Below, in pieces: positions 17,953 through 24,587 of a DNA stretch of 64,000 nt. Location: the NCBI GenBank assembly GCA_965249835.1, contig CBDFMY010000003.1, positions 358,286 to 422,285 of the forward strand, read 5' to 3'. Position numbers and translations under genes: made by a program. The notes below the pieces were generated by a model that did no database searches, was not told the DNA's origin, and worked only from the letters and a program-made list of their open reading frames with translations. Each line of letters starts with the position of its first letter. The stretch's first letter is position 1. The stretch is from Candidatus Poriferihabitaceae bacterium (GTDB taxonomy: Bacteria > Pseudomonadota > Gammaproteobacteria > Arenicellales > Poriferihabitantaceae).

Positions 17953-18318
17953 TCAGGAATTCATCTTGCGTTGATGTCCGGCATCTGTCAATTGCGCAAG
18001 ATAATTGCGCCAGTTTTCCGCTTGATTGACGCCCAGCGCGTAAAGCGTGTCCCACGAATAAATGCCGGTGGCGTGGCCATCGTCAAATATCGGCTTGATG
18101 GCGTAATTGCCGACCGGCTCGATGTTATCAATATTCACGCGCTCCTTGCCGACCTGCAACACGCCCTGCCCGGGGCCATGCCCCTGCACCTCGGCCGAGG
18201 GCGAATGAACCCGCAGGTATTCGCAACTCATCTCAAACTGCTCGCCGCCATCAAACGACACCGTCAGCATCCGCGTCTTGCGATTGAGATTAATTTCGGT
18301 GGGAGTGTGTTGGCTCAT
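17953..18318 (-). CDS. DUF971 (gamma-butyrobetaine hydroxylase-like N-terminal domain) protein
   Basis: 121 aa. [14 protein letters not shown]...[26 protein letters not shown] is the DUF971 signature. It commonly precedes ubiE. Confidence 0.8.
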
Positions 18319-19547
18319 ACCAGCATTTTTAGAATATCTTTTTGCGTCGTAGCAACATCCCTTTCGTTAATCGCAAAGATGCCGAAGTTGTTTTGCTTGG
18401 TTTCCGTTACCATTTTTCTAATAAGATCTTGGTCGGCTTGATTCACCTCATTGCCGTGAAAAAACTTAACAATTTCTTGATCTGCCATTTTGCTATGAAA
18501 AACGCCTCGCATTGTTTTTGATGTTAGCCCAACAACAGAAAAGCATGGCATTTTTTTGTTGTTGAATCTAAGTTCTTTTATATTGGAAAACAATGCTAAT
18601 TTTATGAAAGCGTCTTTGATGTCGTTGGTAGAAGGGAGCAATTTCTTCTCGCTATGTTTCTTTTCCACTAAAAATATTCGATCATCCAAAACAAAATGTT
18701 CATCTGCCGTGAGGTAATATACCCCGCCTAACAGGTTTTTTATAGTAACGGTGGCCTTTTCGCCGGTGACTTTTTCCTTAGGCTGGACTGTTAAAACTTC
18801 TCGACGTTGTGCTTTTATAGCCAATTCTCGTGACAATTCCTTAAATTGAGAAGTGTCTGTTGTTATGATTTGTAGTCTTTTCTCAATACCCTGTTTGCGG
18901 TGCATTTTGACTTTTAATTGATTGCTTATTTTTTGATATGAATCCAAAGTTAATTGAACAACTTTGGGCAGTTCTTCCATTTGCTTTAAATTCCAATGTA
19001 GCGCGCTGGAATGATATTGTTGCAACTCGATAAGTTTTTCATAAACATAACCATACTCTAAAACTTGTTTGGTGATTTTGTTTTTATTCTCTTGCCCAGG
19101 CCGCATATTCCTTTCGGCATCGGCGTAATAACAAACAATCACATAAACATTAAGTAAACTCATCAGTGAAACAGTGTCCCACTGGATAAAATCCCGGTCT
19201 CCATCTGCCCCTTCATCTTTGCAAAAAGGGATTAATGCAACCCGATTTTTTCTGCACAATGTGTCATACACACGCGCAAATGGAAATGTGCGTGTTCGTT
19301 TGGGAGAAACCCATTGACTTAAAGCGTATTCTTCGTTGTCAAGTCTGAGAATAAAACTGCTTTTCGCGGATAAACGACCTTGCAACAAACCATCTTTATC
19401 AAAAACTTCTAATGGGTTGGAAAGATTAGCCTGATATTCTACTTCCTTTAATTCTGCAAAAATGTCGGCGGGTGCACTCATCGAATTAGTAAATAGTAAG
19501 TGTATGGTTCGAAAAATATAATTAATGATTCGGTTCAACATAATCAT
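18315..19547 (-). CDS. putative restriction endonuclease (PD-(D/E)xK motif near the C-terminus), family not recognised
   Basis: AT-rich 410-aa ORF directly downstream of two methyltransferase genes. Candidate catalytic motif ...LTADEHFVLDDRIFLVEKKH... (D-x14-E-K-K). The start is uncertain (19547, 19541 or 19481). Its stop TGA overlaps the ATG of the DUF971 gene (ATGA). Confidence 0.55.
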   Translation of the reverse strand: MIMLNRIINYIFRTIHLLFTNSMSAPADIFAELKEVEYQANLSNPLEVFDKDGLLQGRLSAKSSFILRLDNEEYALSQWVSPKRTRTFPFARVYDTLCRKNRVALIPFCKDEGADGDRDFIQWDTVSLMSLLNVYVIVCYYADAERNMRPGQENKNKITKQVLEYGYVYEKLIELQQYHSSALHWNLKQMEELPKVVQLTLDSYQKISNQLKVKMHRKQGIEKRLQIITTDTSQFKELSRELAIKAQRREVLTVQPKEKVTGEKATVTIKNLLGGVYYLTADEHFVLDDRIFLVEKKHSEKKLLPSTNDIKDAFIKLALFSNIKELRFNNKKMPCFSVVGLTSKTMRGVFHSKMADQEIVKFFHGNEVNQADQDLIRKMVTETKQNNFGIFAINERDVATTQKDILKMLV

Positions 19548-20346
19548 GGCTCACAACAAATATTTCATTCGACTTTTTGCTCGCGTTCATCCCATATCTC
19601 CAGTGCGTTGATATAAAACGAAACTCGCTATAAAAATCGCGCACCTGTTCGCAATCATTATACGACAACAACCATCGGTCACGCCTGTGTAGCAACTTGG
19701 CAAGCCCTTCGTGGTCGAAGTTTTTGTGGTGGTCTCCTCTCTGCCCGTATAAATTGCTGGACACGAAGTAAGGCGGGTCTAAATACAAAAAATCTTCCGC
19801 ATGGCGAGGGATGGATTGTTTGAAATCAGCATGTTCTACATAAAAATTATTTACTTTAAAGTTTGCAAGTCTATTAATGGCAGATTTGGTGAACCTTGGA
19901 TGTCCGGGTGACATGCCACCAGACAGCGTTGTGCCGGAAAACGAACTTCGGTTAAGCACAAAAAACTCCGCCGCGGACTTCTCACTTTCGTCGGTGTAGA
20001 CATGTTTCTTCTGCAACGCATAGAACGCATCCTTGCTCAACGGATAATACTCATCCACCAAGTCAGCCAGGCCAGACGGGTCGCGCAATAGCACTTGCCA
20101 AAAATTCACAAGTGGCAAGAAAGCATCATATACCTGAACCTCTACCCCTCTTGTAGCCAACGCCAATTCTACCGACCCACCCCCGACAAACGGAGAGCAC
20201 AACTTTTTCAAGCCCGGCGACAACAACTCAAGTATTCGCTTGACCGCACGAGATTTGCCGCCAGGGTAACGAAGCGGTGACTTTATCGGCTCGATAAACG
20301 GCGAACAATCTTGCCATGTATCGTTAACCAGAGATGTTTGTTTCAT
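19522..20346 (-). CDS. Dam-class (D12, alpha-group) N6-adenine DNA methyltransferase
   Basis: RYPGGKSR, motif I PFVGGGSVEL and motif IV YLDPPYF occur in alpha order. Confidence 0.85.
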   Translation of the reverse strand: MKQTSLVNDTWQDCSPFIEPIKSPLRYPGGKSRAVKRILELLSPGLKKLCSPFVGGGSVELALATRGVEVQVYDAFLPLVNFWQVLLRDPSGLADLVDEYYPLSKDAFYALQKKHVYTDESEKSAAEFFVLNRSSFSGTTLSGGMSPGHPRFTKSAINRLANFKVNNFYVEHADFKQSIPRHAEDFLYLDPPYFVSSNLYGQRGDHHKNFDHEGLAKLLHRRDRWLLSYNDCEQVRDFYSEFRFISTHWRYGMNASKKSNEIFVVSHDYVEPNH

Positions 20347-20392
20347 TGTTCCTGCAATATTTTGATGTGTGGTGATTGTATATCCCCACGCA

Positions 20393-21499
20393 TCATAATT
20401 TGAGATGGTTAATTTTTTTCACGCCATACTCTATATACTGTTTCTCCGTTTCCATTCCGATATGTTTTCTTTTCAGTTTTTCCGCCACCAGATTGGTAAT
20501 GCCACTCCCTGAAAAAATATCGAGAACGGCGTCGTTTTCGTAGGAATAATATTGAATTACGCGGCGCGCCAACTCATCCGGGAATGGGCAGGGATGAATG
20601 TTTTCGCTCGGGGCAACCGGGCGGATATTCCAAATATTTTTGCTTTGCTCTTGATACCCCTCCAGATTAATTTTATTTGCCTTCTTTTCTTTCGCCGAAC
20701 GATTATGGTAAATGTTGTTTTCCAATTTTTTTGCGGCAGGTTTTTGAAATACAAAAACATACTCCACGGCCAGGCTCGGATAATAATATCCGGGATAAGG
20801 ATGTTGCATTAAAACACCACTTCTTTTATCCCTGACTACGCCCTTTTCCCAGATGATGTCCTCTTTGAATTGCCAGCCGATTTCTTCCATCCAGCAAACA
20901 AAATGAAAGGGCAATGCCACACGCTTCCCAGCCCATGCAACCGGTGAAATGTTAACTACATTGTGGCCGCCCGGCATTACTACTCGATATAGTTCCTTGA
21001 ATCTGTCTATCAGGAATGTTTTGTAATAATGATATGATTGCTCGGTTCTTTCCCAATGACGAATATCGCCTTTCAATTTCTTTATGTGATCTTCATAATT
21101 GATGGCGTTGTGATACGGCGGAGAGGTAAATGCCAATACAATACTGTCATCCATCAACGTCTTCATGCTATCCAGGCAATCACCGCAAATGAATTGTCCC
21201 AGGCCGGCCTTGTATACTTTGAGTTTCTCCCGGTTAATTCGAAAACGCCCACCCAACTCCAGTGCCGATATAATTTGCAGTGCTTTGGTTTTTCCCAACC
21301 CCTTGAAATTTAATAAATCTTCTACCTTGATTTTCGCAGTTAGACTAGAACGAAGATAATCAACTAATTCCTTGCTTAAAGAATTAATATCTTTTCCATT
21401 GTCGCCAGTGCCGAGAAGCACCGCTAACAACTCCTCTGTATTCAGTTTTGACGGTGGGTTGGAAAGGAGTTTTTCTCTAGACTGTTGGTCTGTTCTCAT
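20393..21499 (-). CDS. beta-class N6A/N4C DNA methyltransferase with an N-terminal RadC-type helix-hairpin-helix domain
   Basis: Motif IV FTSPPYHNAINY precedes motif I LDIFSGSGIT, which is beta order. The N-terminal ~95 aa (TEELLAVLLGTGDNGKDINSLSKELVDYL...FKGLGKTKALQIISALELGGR) resemble the RadC/UPF0758 N-terminal HhH region. Start taken at ATG 21497-21499, after GAGGAGG. Confidence 0.8.
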   Translation of the reverse strand: MRTDQQSREKLLSNPPSKLNTEELLAVLLGTGDNGKDINSLSKELVDYLRSSLTAKIKVEDLLNFKGLGKTKALQIISALELGGRFRINREKLKVYKAGLGQFICGDCLDSMKTLMDDSIVLAFTSPPYHNAINYEDHIKKLKGDIRHWERTEQSYHYYKTFLIDRFKELYRVVMPGGHNVVNISPVAWAGKRVALPFHFVCWMEEIGWQFKEDIIWEKGVVRDKRSGVLMQHPYPGYYYPSLAVEYVFVFQKPAAKKLENNIYHNRSAKEKKANKINLEGYQEQSKNIWNIRPVAPSENIHPCPFPDELARRVIQYYSYENDAVLDIFSGSGITNLVAEKLKRKHIGMETEKQYIEYGVKKINHLKL

Positions 21500-21500
21500 A

Positions 21501-21710
21501 TTAATTGGCCTCCTCGACCACTTCCGTTGCTTCATTTATGGCTAACTCAATGTCACTAATTGAGAAGTTATGCTTCTCTTGCTCCGCTTTACTCGATCCA
21601 TCCTTACCGGTATCGACATAAAACTCCGCAAGTTGCGCTGCACTAGTTCGGTCCTCTGCGGTGATGGAAACTAAATATGCGCGGCTTAAAGACACTATGT
21701 ATTGTTTCAT
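21501..21710 (-). CDS. small acidic hypothetical protein (69 aa), first gene of the R-M-like cassette
   Basis: Its TAA stop lies 1 nt from the ATG of the downstream methyltransferase (TAATATG). I recognised no HTH. Confidence 0.45.
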   Translation of the reverse strand: MKQYIVSLSRAYLVSITAEDRTSAAQLAEFYVDTGKDGSSKAEQEKHNFSISDIELAINEATEVVEEAN

Positions 21711-21733
21711 GTGAAATTCTCCGAATTAAAATT

Positions 21734-22474
21734 GGGTCATGACAACTTTAGCGGCTTTTTTCTAAAGTCATCAAGCAAGACTTTATACCAATCCTGCCCT
21801 CTATTATTGAATCTAAACTCACATTCTTTAAGGTGTAAATTGAACATGCTTTTGTTCATCCCCTTAAACTTGACCAGACGTATTTTAGCATAGCCCCAAA
21901 AAGATTCGATGCCATTGATATGACTATTGCCTCGCACAAATTCATTCCGACCATGATGCACTCTGAAATGTTTCTTATAGCCAAAATCAACCAGACCATT
22001 ATAGCCGCGCCAACCATCAGAATGAATGACGCTGCCTATCTCTGTTTTACCTAAGATAATCCGCTGTAGCGTATATGCAGAGCAATCTGGCACTATTTCT
22101 GTATAGACCTTCCCCGCTCTTTTGAGCAAGCCAAATACAATGATTTTGCCCCGAGCGCCTCGACCACGCTTCCCTTTAATGCGTCTAGCCCCAAAATAAC
22201 TTTCATCCACTTCGATCTGCCCGGCTAATGGCTGAGAGGCTTGTCGGCAATGACTGACCATTCGTAACCGAATAGCGGTCAAGTATTTGTTGATGGTTTG
22301 CCGACTTAAACCGGTTAATTCTGCTATTTGCGTCGCCGTTAAATCCACGGAAAAAATATTTGATTAAATCCCTGAATTTCCTCTCTGACACATGGGAACG
22401 AATGACATACCTGTTTTTTACTTTCATAACAACACCTTACCATGATATTGACCATGCTAAAGTTGTCATGACCC
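21734..22474 (-). mobile_element. IS1595-family insertion sequence (741 bp)
   Basis: 19-bp perfect terminal inverted repeats (gggtcatgacaactttagc at 21734-21752 and its reverse complement at 22456-22474). 8-bp direct target duplication ttaaaatt at 21726-21733 and 22475-22482. Confidence 0.9.
21737..22427 (-). pseudogene. IS1595-family (ISXO2-like DDE) transposase, split by a +1 frameshift
   Basis: ORFs 22203..22427 and 21737..22348 join if one T is removed from the T6 run at 22351-22356 (KYF-S-VDLTATQIAELTG). The DDE_Tnp_IS1595 body reads EVDESYFG...HSDGWRGY...INGIESFW. Confidence 0.8.
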
Positions 22475-22481
22475 TTAAAAT

Positions 22482-23501
<1,020 letters not shown>

Positions 23502-24587
23502 TCATTGCTTCTTTGTCTTTTTCGCAGGTTTCTTTTTTGCGACCTTCTTTTTCGCCGTTTTTCTTGCGGGGCTTTTTGCTGCGGATTTTTTGCCGACCTT
23601 GCGCACCGGTCGCTTTTTACTCGCCGCTTTTTTCGCGGCCGTTTTCTTTTTGCTCGCGAGTGGAGATTTGTTCGGTGTTGGCACTTTCTTGGACACTTTC
23701 TTTGCCGCTTTCTTTTTGGTTGCCGTTTTACTCACGGGCTTGCTCGCAGTTTTTTTGGCAACTCTTTTATCGGTGGCTTTGTTTTTCGCGGCAACTTGCA
23801 CAGTCGCGCGCATGCTTCTCGCCGGAGTTTCCGGCGCGTTCGTTATGCGACTGATCTGACCACCGACGATGACCGTGCTGATTTCTTCATCGTGGGTTTG
23901 CGCGGCGGTTTCCAGCGGCGTGATTTCCAGCGGGCGGATTTCCAGATCAACGATATCGCAAATTTTTTGCTCGATTTCCGCGACCTCGCCGGTCGCCACC
24001 ACCGTGCGTAATTTGTGCTGTGCCTTGTAGTAGGCGAGCAGCGGAGCGGTTTGCCGGTTATATTCCTTAATTTTTCGCAGCGCGGTTCTGGCATTGCTGC
24101 GAGATTCGGAAACCACTTTGCCACCGCAGTTATCGCACTTGCCGCGGATTTGCGGTGGGGAAAAGTGACGATTATAAGCGGCACCGCACTGGTCGCACCC
24201 CTGCCGGCCGGTGATGCGCCGCATCAGTGTGTCGTCATCCACCTTGAGGTGGGCAACGATTTGCAATGCCCCGCCGTGTATGCCCAGCAGGGCATCCAGC
24301 GCCTGAGCCTGGGGAATGTCGCCCGGAAAGTCGTCGATGATGAATCCGCGTTTGCTGTCGCGTGCGCGCAACCGCTCTTCCAGCAACGCCATCACCACAT
24401 CAAAGGCAACCGGCTGCCCGGCGGCCACCGCTTCTTTGGTTTTGTTATCGAGTTTGTTGTCGTCCGCCGCCGCTGCTGCGCGTAGCAGACCACCCACGGA
24501 TATGCGCGGCACTCGATACTGTTTCGCCAGTAATTTCGCTTGTGTCCCCTTGCCGGAACCCGACGCGCCGAGGATCGCAATTCGCAT
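23502..24587 (-). CDS. divergent adenylate-kinase-like protein with a Cys4 lid and a C-terminal Lys/Ala/Pro-rich histone-H1-like tail
   Basis: The N-terminal ~215 aa align to Adk (MRIAILGASGSGKGTQAKLLA, LID CDQCG...CDNCGG, TAPLLAYY). The last ~130 aa are KKxAAKK-type low complexity. Confidence 0.75.
   Translation of the reverse strand: MRIAILGASGSGKGTQAKLLAKQYRVPRISVGGLLRAAAAADDNKLDNKTKEAVAAGQPVAFDVVMALLEERLRARDSKRGFIIDDFPGDIPQAQALDALLGIHGGALQIVAHLKVDDDTLMRRITGRQGCDQCGAAYNRHFSPPQIRGKCDNCGGKVVSESRSNARTALRKIKEYNRQTAPLLAYYKAQHKLRTVVATGEVAEIEQKICDIVDLEIRPLEITPLETAAQTHDEEISTVIVGGQISRITNAPETPARSMRATVQVAAKNKATDKRVAKKTASKPVSKTATKKKAAKKVSKKVPTPNKSPLASKKKTAAKKAASKKRPVRKVGKKSAAKSPARKTAKKKVAKKKPAKKTKKQ

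What the first reader, a model, noticed from the sequence alone, without database searches (positions are those of the whole stretch)
18315..21710. AT-rich four-gene restriction-modification-like cassette with atypical parts, inserted upstream of the ubi operon
Between hemB and the DUF971-ubiE-ubiJ-ubiB operon lies a ~3.4-kb segment that is visibly much AT-richer than its flanks. All four genes run on the minus strand:
1. A 69-aa acidic ORF.
2. A beta-class (motif IV before motif I) N6A/N4C methyltransferase with a RadC-type HhH N-terminus.
3. A Dam-class (D12) methyltransferase.
4. A 410-aa protein whose only recognisable feature is a C-terminal D-x14-E-K-K (PD-(D/E)xK-like) motif.

Two methyltransferases of different classes plus a nuclease built as an N-terminal body with a C-terminal cleavage motif is the layout of Type IIS or DpnII-like systems. 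However, the nuclease does not resemble the DpnII/MboI enzyme as I remember it. The small ORF is not an HTH controller protein. The cassette could therefore be an uncharacterised R-M variant or a different defence system built on R-M parts.
Basis: partly seen in the sequence, partly recalled or inferred. Interest (0 to 1): 0.72.

Follow-up and report, generated by a model that had tools for sequence, protein, structure and literature searches.

The report
Ordinary Type II restriction-modification cassette
The AT-rich segment is a horizontally acquired, conventional Type II restriction-modification operon whose nuclease belongs to a large, already catalogued (but poorly annotated) restriction-enzyme family, so it is a routine defence cassette and not a new kind of system.

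Summary
The four minus-strand ORFs and the low-GC tract are real. The "unrecognisable" 410-aa protein (probably 388 aa) hits PADLOC's REBASE-derived Type II REase model PDLC03572 at E=1.8e-78. Its family has more than 3,000 members and occurs in 417 species-representative genomes. In 73 of 80 loci a beta-class MTase sits immediately upstream on the same strand, which is a classic M->R pair. The D12 MTase is an add-on found in only 8 of 80 loci. Its closest characterised relative is M.CbeI, an alpha-class N4-cytosine MTase for GGCC, not Dam or DpnM. The beta MTase has the m4C-type TSPPY motif. The recognition site is probably GGCC (about 50% confidence), because orthologues of M.CbeI (77% identical) partner this REase family elsewhere. 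Two isospecific MTases of different classes have precedent in DpnII and BcnI. The 69-aa ORF belongs to an uncharacterised small-protein family and is only inconsistently linked to R-M systems. The tract also holds a complete 741-bp IS1595-family element that inserted later. Related strains carry arrays of different defence cassettes at the same hemB/DUF971 site. Verdict: new member of a known kind, low interest.

The parts
18315..19481 (-). Type II restriction endonuclease, 388 aa (the ORF could extend to 19547, giving 410 aa). It has an N-terminal domain of unknown fold plus a C-terminal PD-(D/E)xK-like domain (D260...E273-K-K275).
   Evidence: PADLOC REase_II PDLC03572 E=1.8e-78. 3,140 homologues. 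Invariant motif columns. AF2 model pLDDT 91.2. Best, weak, fold matches are McrC, Exo5 and R2 nucleases. The stop codon overlaps the DUF971 start (ATGA).
19522..20346 (-). Second, accessory DNA MTase, alpha-class (Pfam D12), M.CbeI-like, motif IV DPPY. Intact in three strains.
   Evidence: Pfam PF02086 2.4e-28. PDB best hit is 7M6B, which is M.CbeI (E=1.9e-38), against DpnM at 6e-8. It scores below the Dam TIGR00571 cut-off. Present in only 8 of 80 family loci. pN/pS 0.21.
20393..21499 (-). Core cognate DNA MTase, beta-class (motif IV TSPPY before motif I DIFSGSG), with an N-terminal RadC-type helix-hairpin-helix domain. Likely 368 aa.
   Evidence: Pfam N6_N4_Mtase 2.3e-40 and UPF0758_N 1.6e-13. 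Motifs. A beta MTase lies immediately upstream of the REase in 73 of 80 loci; the HhH extension occurs in 11 of 80. pN/pS 0.09.
21501..21710 (-). 69-aa acidic leader ORF, translationally coupled to the beta MTase. Member of an uncharacterised small-protein family.
   Evidence: 76 representative clusters, full-length colinear. Conserved in L081 and L087 ahead of the same cassette. Also leads an unrelated beta-MTase + RE_EcoO109I pair in L089. Absent from 80 of 80 other REase loci. AF2 pLDDT 96.4 with no fold neighbour.
21734..22474 (-). Complete IS1595-family insertion sequence (741 bp; transposase ORF 21737-22348). It inserted later between the hemB stop and the leader ORF and is not part of the R-M system.
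   Evidence: NCBIfam transpos_IS1595 1.9e-46 and Pfam DDE_Tnp_IS1595 1.1e-25. Perfect 19-bp terminal inverted repeats. 8-bp target duplication TTAAAATT. Absent at this point in L081.

Best explanation
This is a horizontally acquired Type II (orthodox, probably IIP) restriction-modification operon. It is transcribed on the minus strand and sits between hemB and DUF971-ubiE.

Shown:
- The nuclease belongs to a large, catalogued Type II REase family.
- That family's standard partner is a beta-class MTase encoded immediately upstream.
- The beta MTase here has the N4-cytosine-type TSPPY catalytic motif.
- The second MTase is an alpha-class enzyme of the M.CbeI (m4C, GGCC) lineage, and only a sub-clade of these systems carries one.

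Inferred:
- Both MTases methylate the same short palindromic site, most likely GGCC to give m4C (about 0.5 confidence). The REase, acting as a homodimer through its C-terminal PD-(D/E)xK site, cuts that site when it is unmethylated.
- The second MTase plays a DpnA/BcnIA-like back-up role, for example faster or single-strand methylation that protects the host or incoming DNA.
- The RadC-type HhH adds non-specific DNA affinity to the core MTase.
- The 69-aa leader is co-translated with the MTase and may modulate establishment, but it is not a conserved component of the system.
For: REase classification: PADLOC REase_II PDLC03572 E=1.8e-78 for the window protein, and 1e-73 to 1e-102 for eight family members from different clades.

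Gene neighbourhood: a beta MTase lies directly upstream on the same strand in 73 of 80 loci drawn from 417 positive genomes.

Nuclease domain: D260, E273 and K275 are invariant. The model is confident. The only fold signals are PD-(D/E)xK nucleases: McrC at prob 0.77, Exo5 and R2.

MTases: Pfam and motif evidence. The D12 enzyme is much closer to M.CbeI (1.9e-38) than to DpnM (6e-8), and M.CbeI is an alpha-class m4C GGCC enzyme.

Specificity: in L080 the family REase overlaps an MTase 77% identical to M.CbeI, and four further loci have partners 50-53% identical. The window's beta-MTase domain is 86% identical to that of L001, whose flanks hold 2 GGCC against 20 expected but 48 GATC against 56 expected. 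In the window host GGCC is 215/419 while CCGG is 524/485.

Functionality: all ORFs are intact and free of indels in three strains, with purifying selection on both MTases.

Precedent for two isospecific MTases: DpnII and BcnI (PMC3573125).
Against: The characterised REBASE enzyme behind PDLC03572 could not be named with the tools at hand.

The GGCC assignment is indirect:
- The window's D12 MTase is only 37% identical to M.CbeI.
- The REase is only 42-44% identical to the M.CbeI-partnered members.
- GGCC depletion also appears in a small set of non-carrier loci (29/67), so that statistic does not discriminate.
- In the three-gene sub-clade's own cassettes GATC is at least as depleted as GGCC, and the L003 genome lacks GATC but not GGCC.

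The REase pN/pS of 0.50 between strains is rather relaxed. No activity data exist.
Confidence: 0.85

Rival explanations
1. A DpnII/MboI-type GATC system: the D12 enzyme methylates double-stranded GATC, the beta enzyme acts as a DpnA-like single-strand adenine methylase, and a non-homologous nuclease cuts unmethylated GATC.
For: The layout is the same as DpnII: an alpha-class MTase, a beta-class MTase and an REase. GATC is depleted in the cassettes of the three-gene sub-clade (about 22 observed against 72 expected, pooled). It is entirely absent from 15 kb of L003 (0/57), and it is 0.43 in the window host.
Against: The D12 MTase scores below the Dam-family cut-off (78 against 114.85 bits) and is far closer to the m4C enzyme M.CbeI than to DpnM. 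The beta MTase has the cytosine-type TSPPY motif, not DPPY or NPPY. L001, whose beta MTase is 86% identical, sits in a genome with normal GATC (48/56) but almost no GGCC (2/20). GATC avoidance is common in prokaryotes irrespective of this system (established knowledge). There is no DpnII Pfam hit.
Confidence: 0.1
2. A Type IIS system or a novel composite defence system, in which two different MTases are needed for an asymmetric site, or R-M parts are re-used for another mechanism.
For: There are two MTases of different classes. The nuclease has a large N-terminal body and a C-terminal cleavage domain. The N-terminal domain has no fold neighbour.
Against: In 73 of 80 loci a single MTase accompanies the REase, and in three others a single M.CbeI-type MTase does. 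That implies a symmetric site protected by one enzyme. No further conserved partner genes exist. M.CbeI's site, GGCC, is palindromic.
Confidence: 0.03
3. A decaying cassette: the MTases are maintained, but the nuclease is inactive or on its way out.
For: REase pN/pS is 0.50, against 0.09 and 0.21 for the MTases. There is no clear Shine-Dalgarno sequence before the homologue-type start codon in this clade. An IS sits at the operon's 5' end.
Against: The REase ORF is full length with no indels in three strains. All 57 invariant family columns are, by construction of the alignment, present in the window protein. The comparison rests on only 35 nucleotide differences, so the pN/pS estimate is imprecise.
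Confidence: 0.07

Closest known systems
PADLOC/DefenseFinder Type II REase family PDLC03572 (profile built from REBASE enzymes)
   Same: The window REase matches over residues 30-329 at E=1.8e-78. All sampled clades match at 1e-73 to 1e-102.
   Different: The C-terminal ~80 residues of the window clade lie outside the profile match. The named enzyme(s) behind the profile could not be identified here.
CbeI / M.CbeI of Caldicellulosiruptor bescii (GGCC, m4C)
   Same: The window's D12 MTase is a homologue of M.CbeI (37% identity over 251 aa, E~1e-38) with the same DPPY motif. M.CbeI orthologues (77% identical) partner this REase family in Hydrogenobacter.
   Different: R.CbeI itself is a Pfam RE_HaeIII protein (PADLOC PDLC03430) with no detectable relation to this REase (hhalign probability 0.05%). 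CbeI has one MTase.
SuaI / M.SuaI of Sulfolobus acidocaldarius (GG(m4C)C)
   Same: Published primers show a TSPPYYN-encoding motif IV about 800 bp upstream of suaI. That indicates a beta-class m4C MTase directly upstream of the REase, the geometry of this family. Sulfolobales members of the family exist (P0216).
   Different: The suaI sequence could not be retrieved, so homology is untested.
DpnII (DpnM, DpnA, DpnB) and BcnI (M.BcnIA, M.BcnIB, R.BcnI)
   Same: Each is a Type II system with two isospecific MTases, one of them dispensable or acting on single-stranded DNA (PMC3573125). That the two BcnI MTases are circularly permuted classes is from my own recollection of the BcnI literature and was not read here.
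   Different: The REases are unrelated. DpnII targets adenine in GATC, whereas here both MTases look cytosine-N4-type. There is no competence-regulated promoter evidence and no C protein.

Membership tests
Type II restriction-modification system (orthodox) | Separate REase and MTase genes, adjacent and co-oriented | tested here: met
   The gene order beta MTase, D12 MTase, REase lies on one strand with gaps of 46 and 40 nt. An M->R pair is present in 73 of 80 family loci.
Type II restriction-modification system (orthodox) | REase belongs to a family with experimentally characterised members | tested here: met
   PADLOC REase_II PDLC03572 E=1.8e-78. That the profile derives from REBASE reference enzymes is established knowledge about the library; the individual enzyme was not identified.
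Type II restriction-modification system (orthodox) | Site-specific cleavage blocked by cognate methylation | not testable with these tools
   Needs enzyme assays or methylome data.
PD-(D/E)xK nuclease superfamily (REase catalytic domain) | Conserved D...(D/E)xK on adjacent beta strands of an alpha/beta core | tested here: met
   D260, E273 and K275 are invariant in 48 sequences. They lie on the hairpin strands 254-265 and 268-277 of a pLDDT-91 model. Fold matches to McrC and Exo5 are only weak.
Beta-class N4-cytosine/N6-adenine DNA MTases (Pfam N6_N4_Mtase) | Motif IV (S/D/N)PP(Y/F) precedes motif I FxGxG; Pfam match above cut-off | tested here: met
   TSPPY at residue 138, DIFSGSG at 339; 139 bits against a cut-off of 26.7. 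The base modified (m4C or m6A) is inferred from the SPPY motif and was not tested.
Dam family (GATC adenine MTases, TIGR00571) | Score above the NCBIfam curated cut-off | tested here: not met
   78.2 bits against a cut-off of 114.85. E. coli Dam equivalog: 22 bits against 441.
M.CbeI-type alpha-class N4-cytosine MTases (GGCC) | Close sequence relationship to M.CbeI over the full length, including the target-recognition region | tested here: inconclusive
   37% identity, E~1e-38, best PDB relative. This is too distant to transfer specificity safely. Partners in L080 (77%) and in L033, L040, L042 and L072 (50-53%) qualify better.
DpnII/MboI REase family (Pfam DpnII) | Pfam DpnII domain in the nuclease | tested here: not met
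   No Pfam hit other than a sub-threshold PSD2 match.
HaeIII/CbeI REase family (Pfam RE_HaeIII) | Homology to R.CbeI or R.HaeIII | tested here: not met
   hhalign of the family alignment against R.CbeI gives probability 0.05%. The two hit different PADLOC models.
Controller (C) protein-regulated R-M systems | Small HTH (Xre-type) protein encoded with the R-M genes | tested here: not met
   The 69-aa ORF has no Pfam, NCBIfam, PADLOC or PHROG hit. Its predicted fold is beta-alpha-alpha-beta, not HTH.

The most novel reading that the evidence does not exclude
The 69-aa acidic leader protein is a new, non-HTH accessory of R-M operons, for example an establishment regulator or a transient inhibitor of the nuclease. 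It has a confident novel fold, belongs to a family of 76 clusters, and is translationally coupled to the MTase here. A 45%-identical homologue leads an unrelated beta-MTase/EcoO109I-type pair. Alongside this, the hemB/DUF971 site may be a cassette-exchange hotspot where defence modules are concatenated through duplicated flank fragments.
Probability: 0.12. Interest if true: 0.55.

Novelty: new member of a known kind. Interest (0 to 1): 0.22.

Why it matters
There is little new biology here: it is one more Type II R-M cassette in a variable defence locus.

The practical value is in annotation. A REase family with thousands of members in bacteria and archaea is labelled "hypothetical protein" by every source. 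It has no Pfam or NCBIfam model and no solved structure. Its frequent partner MTases are auto-annotated "DNA adenine methylase" even though the characterised relative makes m4C.

If the GGCC prediction holds, this family and the HaeIII family would be non-homologous nucleases that recruit the same MTase lineage. That would be a tidy example of isoschizomer convergence. It would also help anyone trying to transform these organisms, many of them uncultured symbionts or thermophiles.

Tried and rejected
- **REase against PDB sequences:** nothing.
- **REase against phage and plasmid records (tblastn):** no match.
- **PHROGs:** nothing.
- **Foldseek of the REase model against PDB:** no hit at E<=1e-3.
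- **Hypothesis that the REase is an R.CbeI homologue:** rejected. R.CbeI is RE_HaeIII and hhalign probability is 0.05%.
- **A second protein search from the Hydrogenobacter member to find a named enzyme:** all hits hypothetical.
- **Recovering the suaI locus with primer-derived probes from the metagenome collection:** the first probe found nothing. The second found three unrelated m4C-MTase contigs without the REase.
- **Palindrome-avoidance test for specificity:** GGCC is the most depleted tetramer in carrier loci. A small non-carrier control shows the same pooled depletion, so I do not count it as discriminating.
- **CbeI discovery paper (PMC4269323):** not held.
- **Small ORF:** no Pfam hit, only weak unnamed PHROG hits. 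No viral-contig relatives. No PDB or BFVD fold neighbours.
Full report
**Observation.** The window holds four co-oriented minus-strand ORFs at 18315-21710, exactly as described. They lie in DNA of 0.38-0.46 GC, between DUF971 (0.555) and hemB (0.570), in a window averaging 0.551. Pfam confirms a D12-class MTase (2.4e-28). It also confirms a beta-class N6_N4 MTase (2.3e-40) carrying an N-terminal RadC-type UPF0758_N helix-hairpin-helix domain (1.6e-13).

Three corrections are needed.
- Homologues of the nuclease begin at its second Met (window 19481), giving 388 aa. The upstream 22 codons are open only in this clade, so the start is not settled.
- The beta MTase most likely starts at 21499, one base after the stop of the 69-aa ORF (TAA-T-ATG).
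- The low-GC tract continues to 22474 because it contains a complete 741-bp IS1595-family element. This element has a transposase ORF at 21737-22348, perfect 19-bp terminal inverted repeats, and an 8-bp target duplication TTAAAATT.

**What the 410-aa protein is.** It has no Pfam, NCBIfam, PHROG or PDB-sequence match. It does match PADLOC's Type II REase model PDLC03572 at E=1.8e-78. Eight family members from different clades also match, at 1e-73 to 1e-102.

The family is large. A protein search found 3,140 relatives, and relatives occur in 417 of the species-representative genomes, across many bacterial and archaeal phyla. Every source calls them hypothetical.

An alignment of 48 members shows 57 invariant columns. 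These include D260...E273-K-K275 and N-terminal blocks (SPKRTR; KDEGxDGDRDFxQWD). AlphaFold gives a confident model (pLDDT 91.2, pTM 0.88). In it, D260 and E273/K275 lie on adjacent hairpin strands. Foldseek finds no significant PDB neighbour. The best weak matches are PD-(D/E)xK nucleases: McrC at prob 0.77, Exo5 and the R2 endonuclease.

**Gene neighbourhood.** I examined 80 fetched loci.
- 73 have a beta-class MTase immediately upstream of the REase on the same strand.
- Only 8 have a D12 MTase. Three (L002, L003, L008; sponge-associated Gammaproteobacteria) have the window's order, beta-D12-R, with 64-66% identity. Five have a more distant D12 gene downstream of the REase.
- The RadC-type extension occurs in 11 of 80.
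- The 69-aa ORF occurs in none.

So the core system is an ordinary M->R pair, and the other parts are clade-specific additions.

**The methyltransferases.** The D12 enzyme's best solved relative is 7M6B (E=1.9e-38), far ahead of DpnM (6e-8). 7M6B is M.CbeI, the alpha-class N4-cytosine MTase of the GGCC-specific CbeI system. It also has a DPPY motif. The window enzyme falls below the Dam-family cut-off.

The beta MTase has TSPPY as motif IV, which is the form typical of N4-cytosine enzymes (the motif-to-base link is established knowledge and was not tested here). Its best solved relatives are TTHA0409 and N4-cytosine MTases.

**Specificity.** In L080 (Hydrogenobacter) a 344-aa member of the REase family overlaps by 4 bp an MTase that is 77% identical to M.CbeI. 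Four other loci have partners 50-53% identical. R.CbeI itself, read from the C. bescii genome, is a Pfam RE_HaeIII protein unrelated to this family (hhalign probability 0.05%). One MTase lineage therefore serves two non-homologous nuclease families, which points to GGCC for at least that clade.

SuaI (GG(m4C)C) may be a characterised member. Published primers place a TSPPYYN-encoding motif about 800 bp upstream of suaI. I could not retrieve the gene to test this.

I also tested palindrome avoidance.
- GGCC is the most depleted of all 256 tetramers in the 80 carrier loci (O/E 0.39). Its O/E is below 0.6 in 85% of loci, while CCGG and GCGC are normal.
- A small set of loci not selected for the REase shows the same pooled value (0.43).
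- In the three-gene sub-clade, GATC is at least as depleted as GGCC.

I therefore treat avoidance as compatible with GGCC but not discriminating, and I put GGCC at about 50% for this cassette. The best specific argument is that the window's beta-MTase domain is 86% identical to that of L001. L001's flanks hold 2 GGCC against 20 expected, but a normal 48 GATC against 56 expected.

**Mechanism.** The shown and inferred steps are listed under the best explanation. In short, two MTases protect one short palindromic site and a PD-(D/E)xK homodimer cuts it when unmethylated. The two-MTase design has precedent in DpnII (DpnM plus the single-strand methylase DpnA) and in BcnI (PMC3573125).

All four ORFs are intact and free of indels in three strains. 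pN/pS is 0.09 for the beta MTase, 0.21 for D12, 0.50 for the REase and 0.46 for the leader, the last resting on only 11 differences. No terminator-like site was found on the coding strand. The REase stop codon overlaps the DUF971 start (ATGA), so the cassette is embedded in the hemB-to-ubi transcription direction.

**The 69-aa ORF.** It is a real gene family: 76 representative clusters, all about 65-75 aa and colinear. The predicted beta-alpha-alpha-beta fold is very confident (pLDDT 96.4) and has no PDB or viral neighbour.

It leads this cassette in the window, L081 and L087. A 45%-identical homologue leads an unrelated beta-MTase + RE_EcoO109I pair in L089. Other homologues are not next to R-M genes (L086, L090-L095). 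Its role is unknown and it is not an HTH controller.

**Locus context.** Two related strains carry the cassette at the same site, at 97% (L081) and 92% (L087) nucleotide identity, together with other modules. These modules include an HNH nuclease, a four-gene unit with a PADLOC PDC-M33A-like protein, and another MTase.

The modules are separated by fused junctions of about 80-104 bp of the DUF971 5' end and 35-281 bp of the hemB 3' end. The breakpoints differ between strains. This looks like repeated recombination-driven stacking of alternative cassettes at a hotspot. The window's IS inserted afterwards, into the 25-nt spacer between hemB and the leader ORF.

**Verdict.** This is a conventional Type II R-M cassette and a new member of a known REase family, with a DpnII/BcnI-like second MTase. 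Interest is low. The residual curiosities are the unannotated REase family, the small leader protein and the cassette hotspot.

Noticed in passing
window 21734-22474: A complete 741-bp IS1595-family insertion sequence with perfect 19-bp inverted repeats and an 8-bp TTAAAATT target duplication. It sits in the 25-nt spacer between the hemB stop and the leader ORF. It is absent from the same spot in L081.
   Followed up: yes
L081 4601-16375; L087 2726-7634 (window equivalents 18196-18318 and 22475-22755): In related strains the hemB/DUF971 site holds arrays of different defence modules. The modules are separated by fused DUF971-5'/hemB-3' fragments, for example a 246-bp repeat at L087 2726-2970 and 7389-7634. 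Breakpoints differ between strains, which suggests repeated recombination-mediated stacking of alternative cassettes.
   Followed up: partly
L081 5217-5780 and 11407-16233: Extra modules at the same site in the 97%-identical strain: a 187-aa HNH nuclease (PADLOC PDLC04132, 1.8e-63), and a four-gene unit whose 621-aa protein matches the PADLOC candidate system PDC-M33A (1.7e-24). The other three proteins have no hits.
   Followed up: partly
L089 1535-3598: A 45%-identical homologue of the 69-aa ORF sits directly upstream of an unrelated R-M pair (beta N6_N4 MTase plus an RE_EcoO109I-family nuclease). This hints that the small-protein family may be a recurrent R-M leader gene, although other members are not R-M linked.
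   Followed up: partly
L080 6995-8853 versus L082 3974-5840: M.CbeI-lineage MTases (77% identical to each other) are paired with two unrelated nucleases: the RE_HaeIII-type R.CbeI in C. bescii, and this REase family in Hydrogenobacter.
   Followed up: yes
window, whole 64 kb excluding 18315-22480: The host DNA strongly avoids AGCT (19 observed, 106 expected) and GTAC (22/97), more than it avoids GGCC (215/419) or GATC (135/317). This suggests other R-M pressures in this lineage.
   Followed up: no
L003, whole 15 kb: This sponge-associated gammaproteobacterial contig has no GATC at all (0 observed, 57 expected) and no CTAG (0/5), while GGCC is at expectation (151/153), even though it carries the same three-gene cassette.
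   Followed up: no
window 23502-24587 (minus strand): The adenylate kinase ORF is 361 aa. It carries a long Lys/Ala/Pro-rich, histone-H1-like C-terminal tail (...KKKAAKKVSKK...KKKPAKKTKKQ). The tail is conserved in L081, where the gene is also called at 361 aa.
   Followed up: no
REase family: Every source labels the thousands of REase homologues 'hypothetical protein'. The M.CbeI-type partner MTases are auto-annotated 'DNA adenine methylase', although the characterised member makes N4-methylcytosine. This is a systematic annotation gap.
   Followed up: partly
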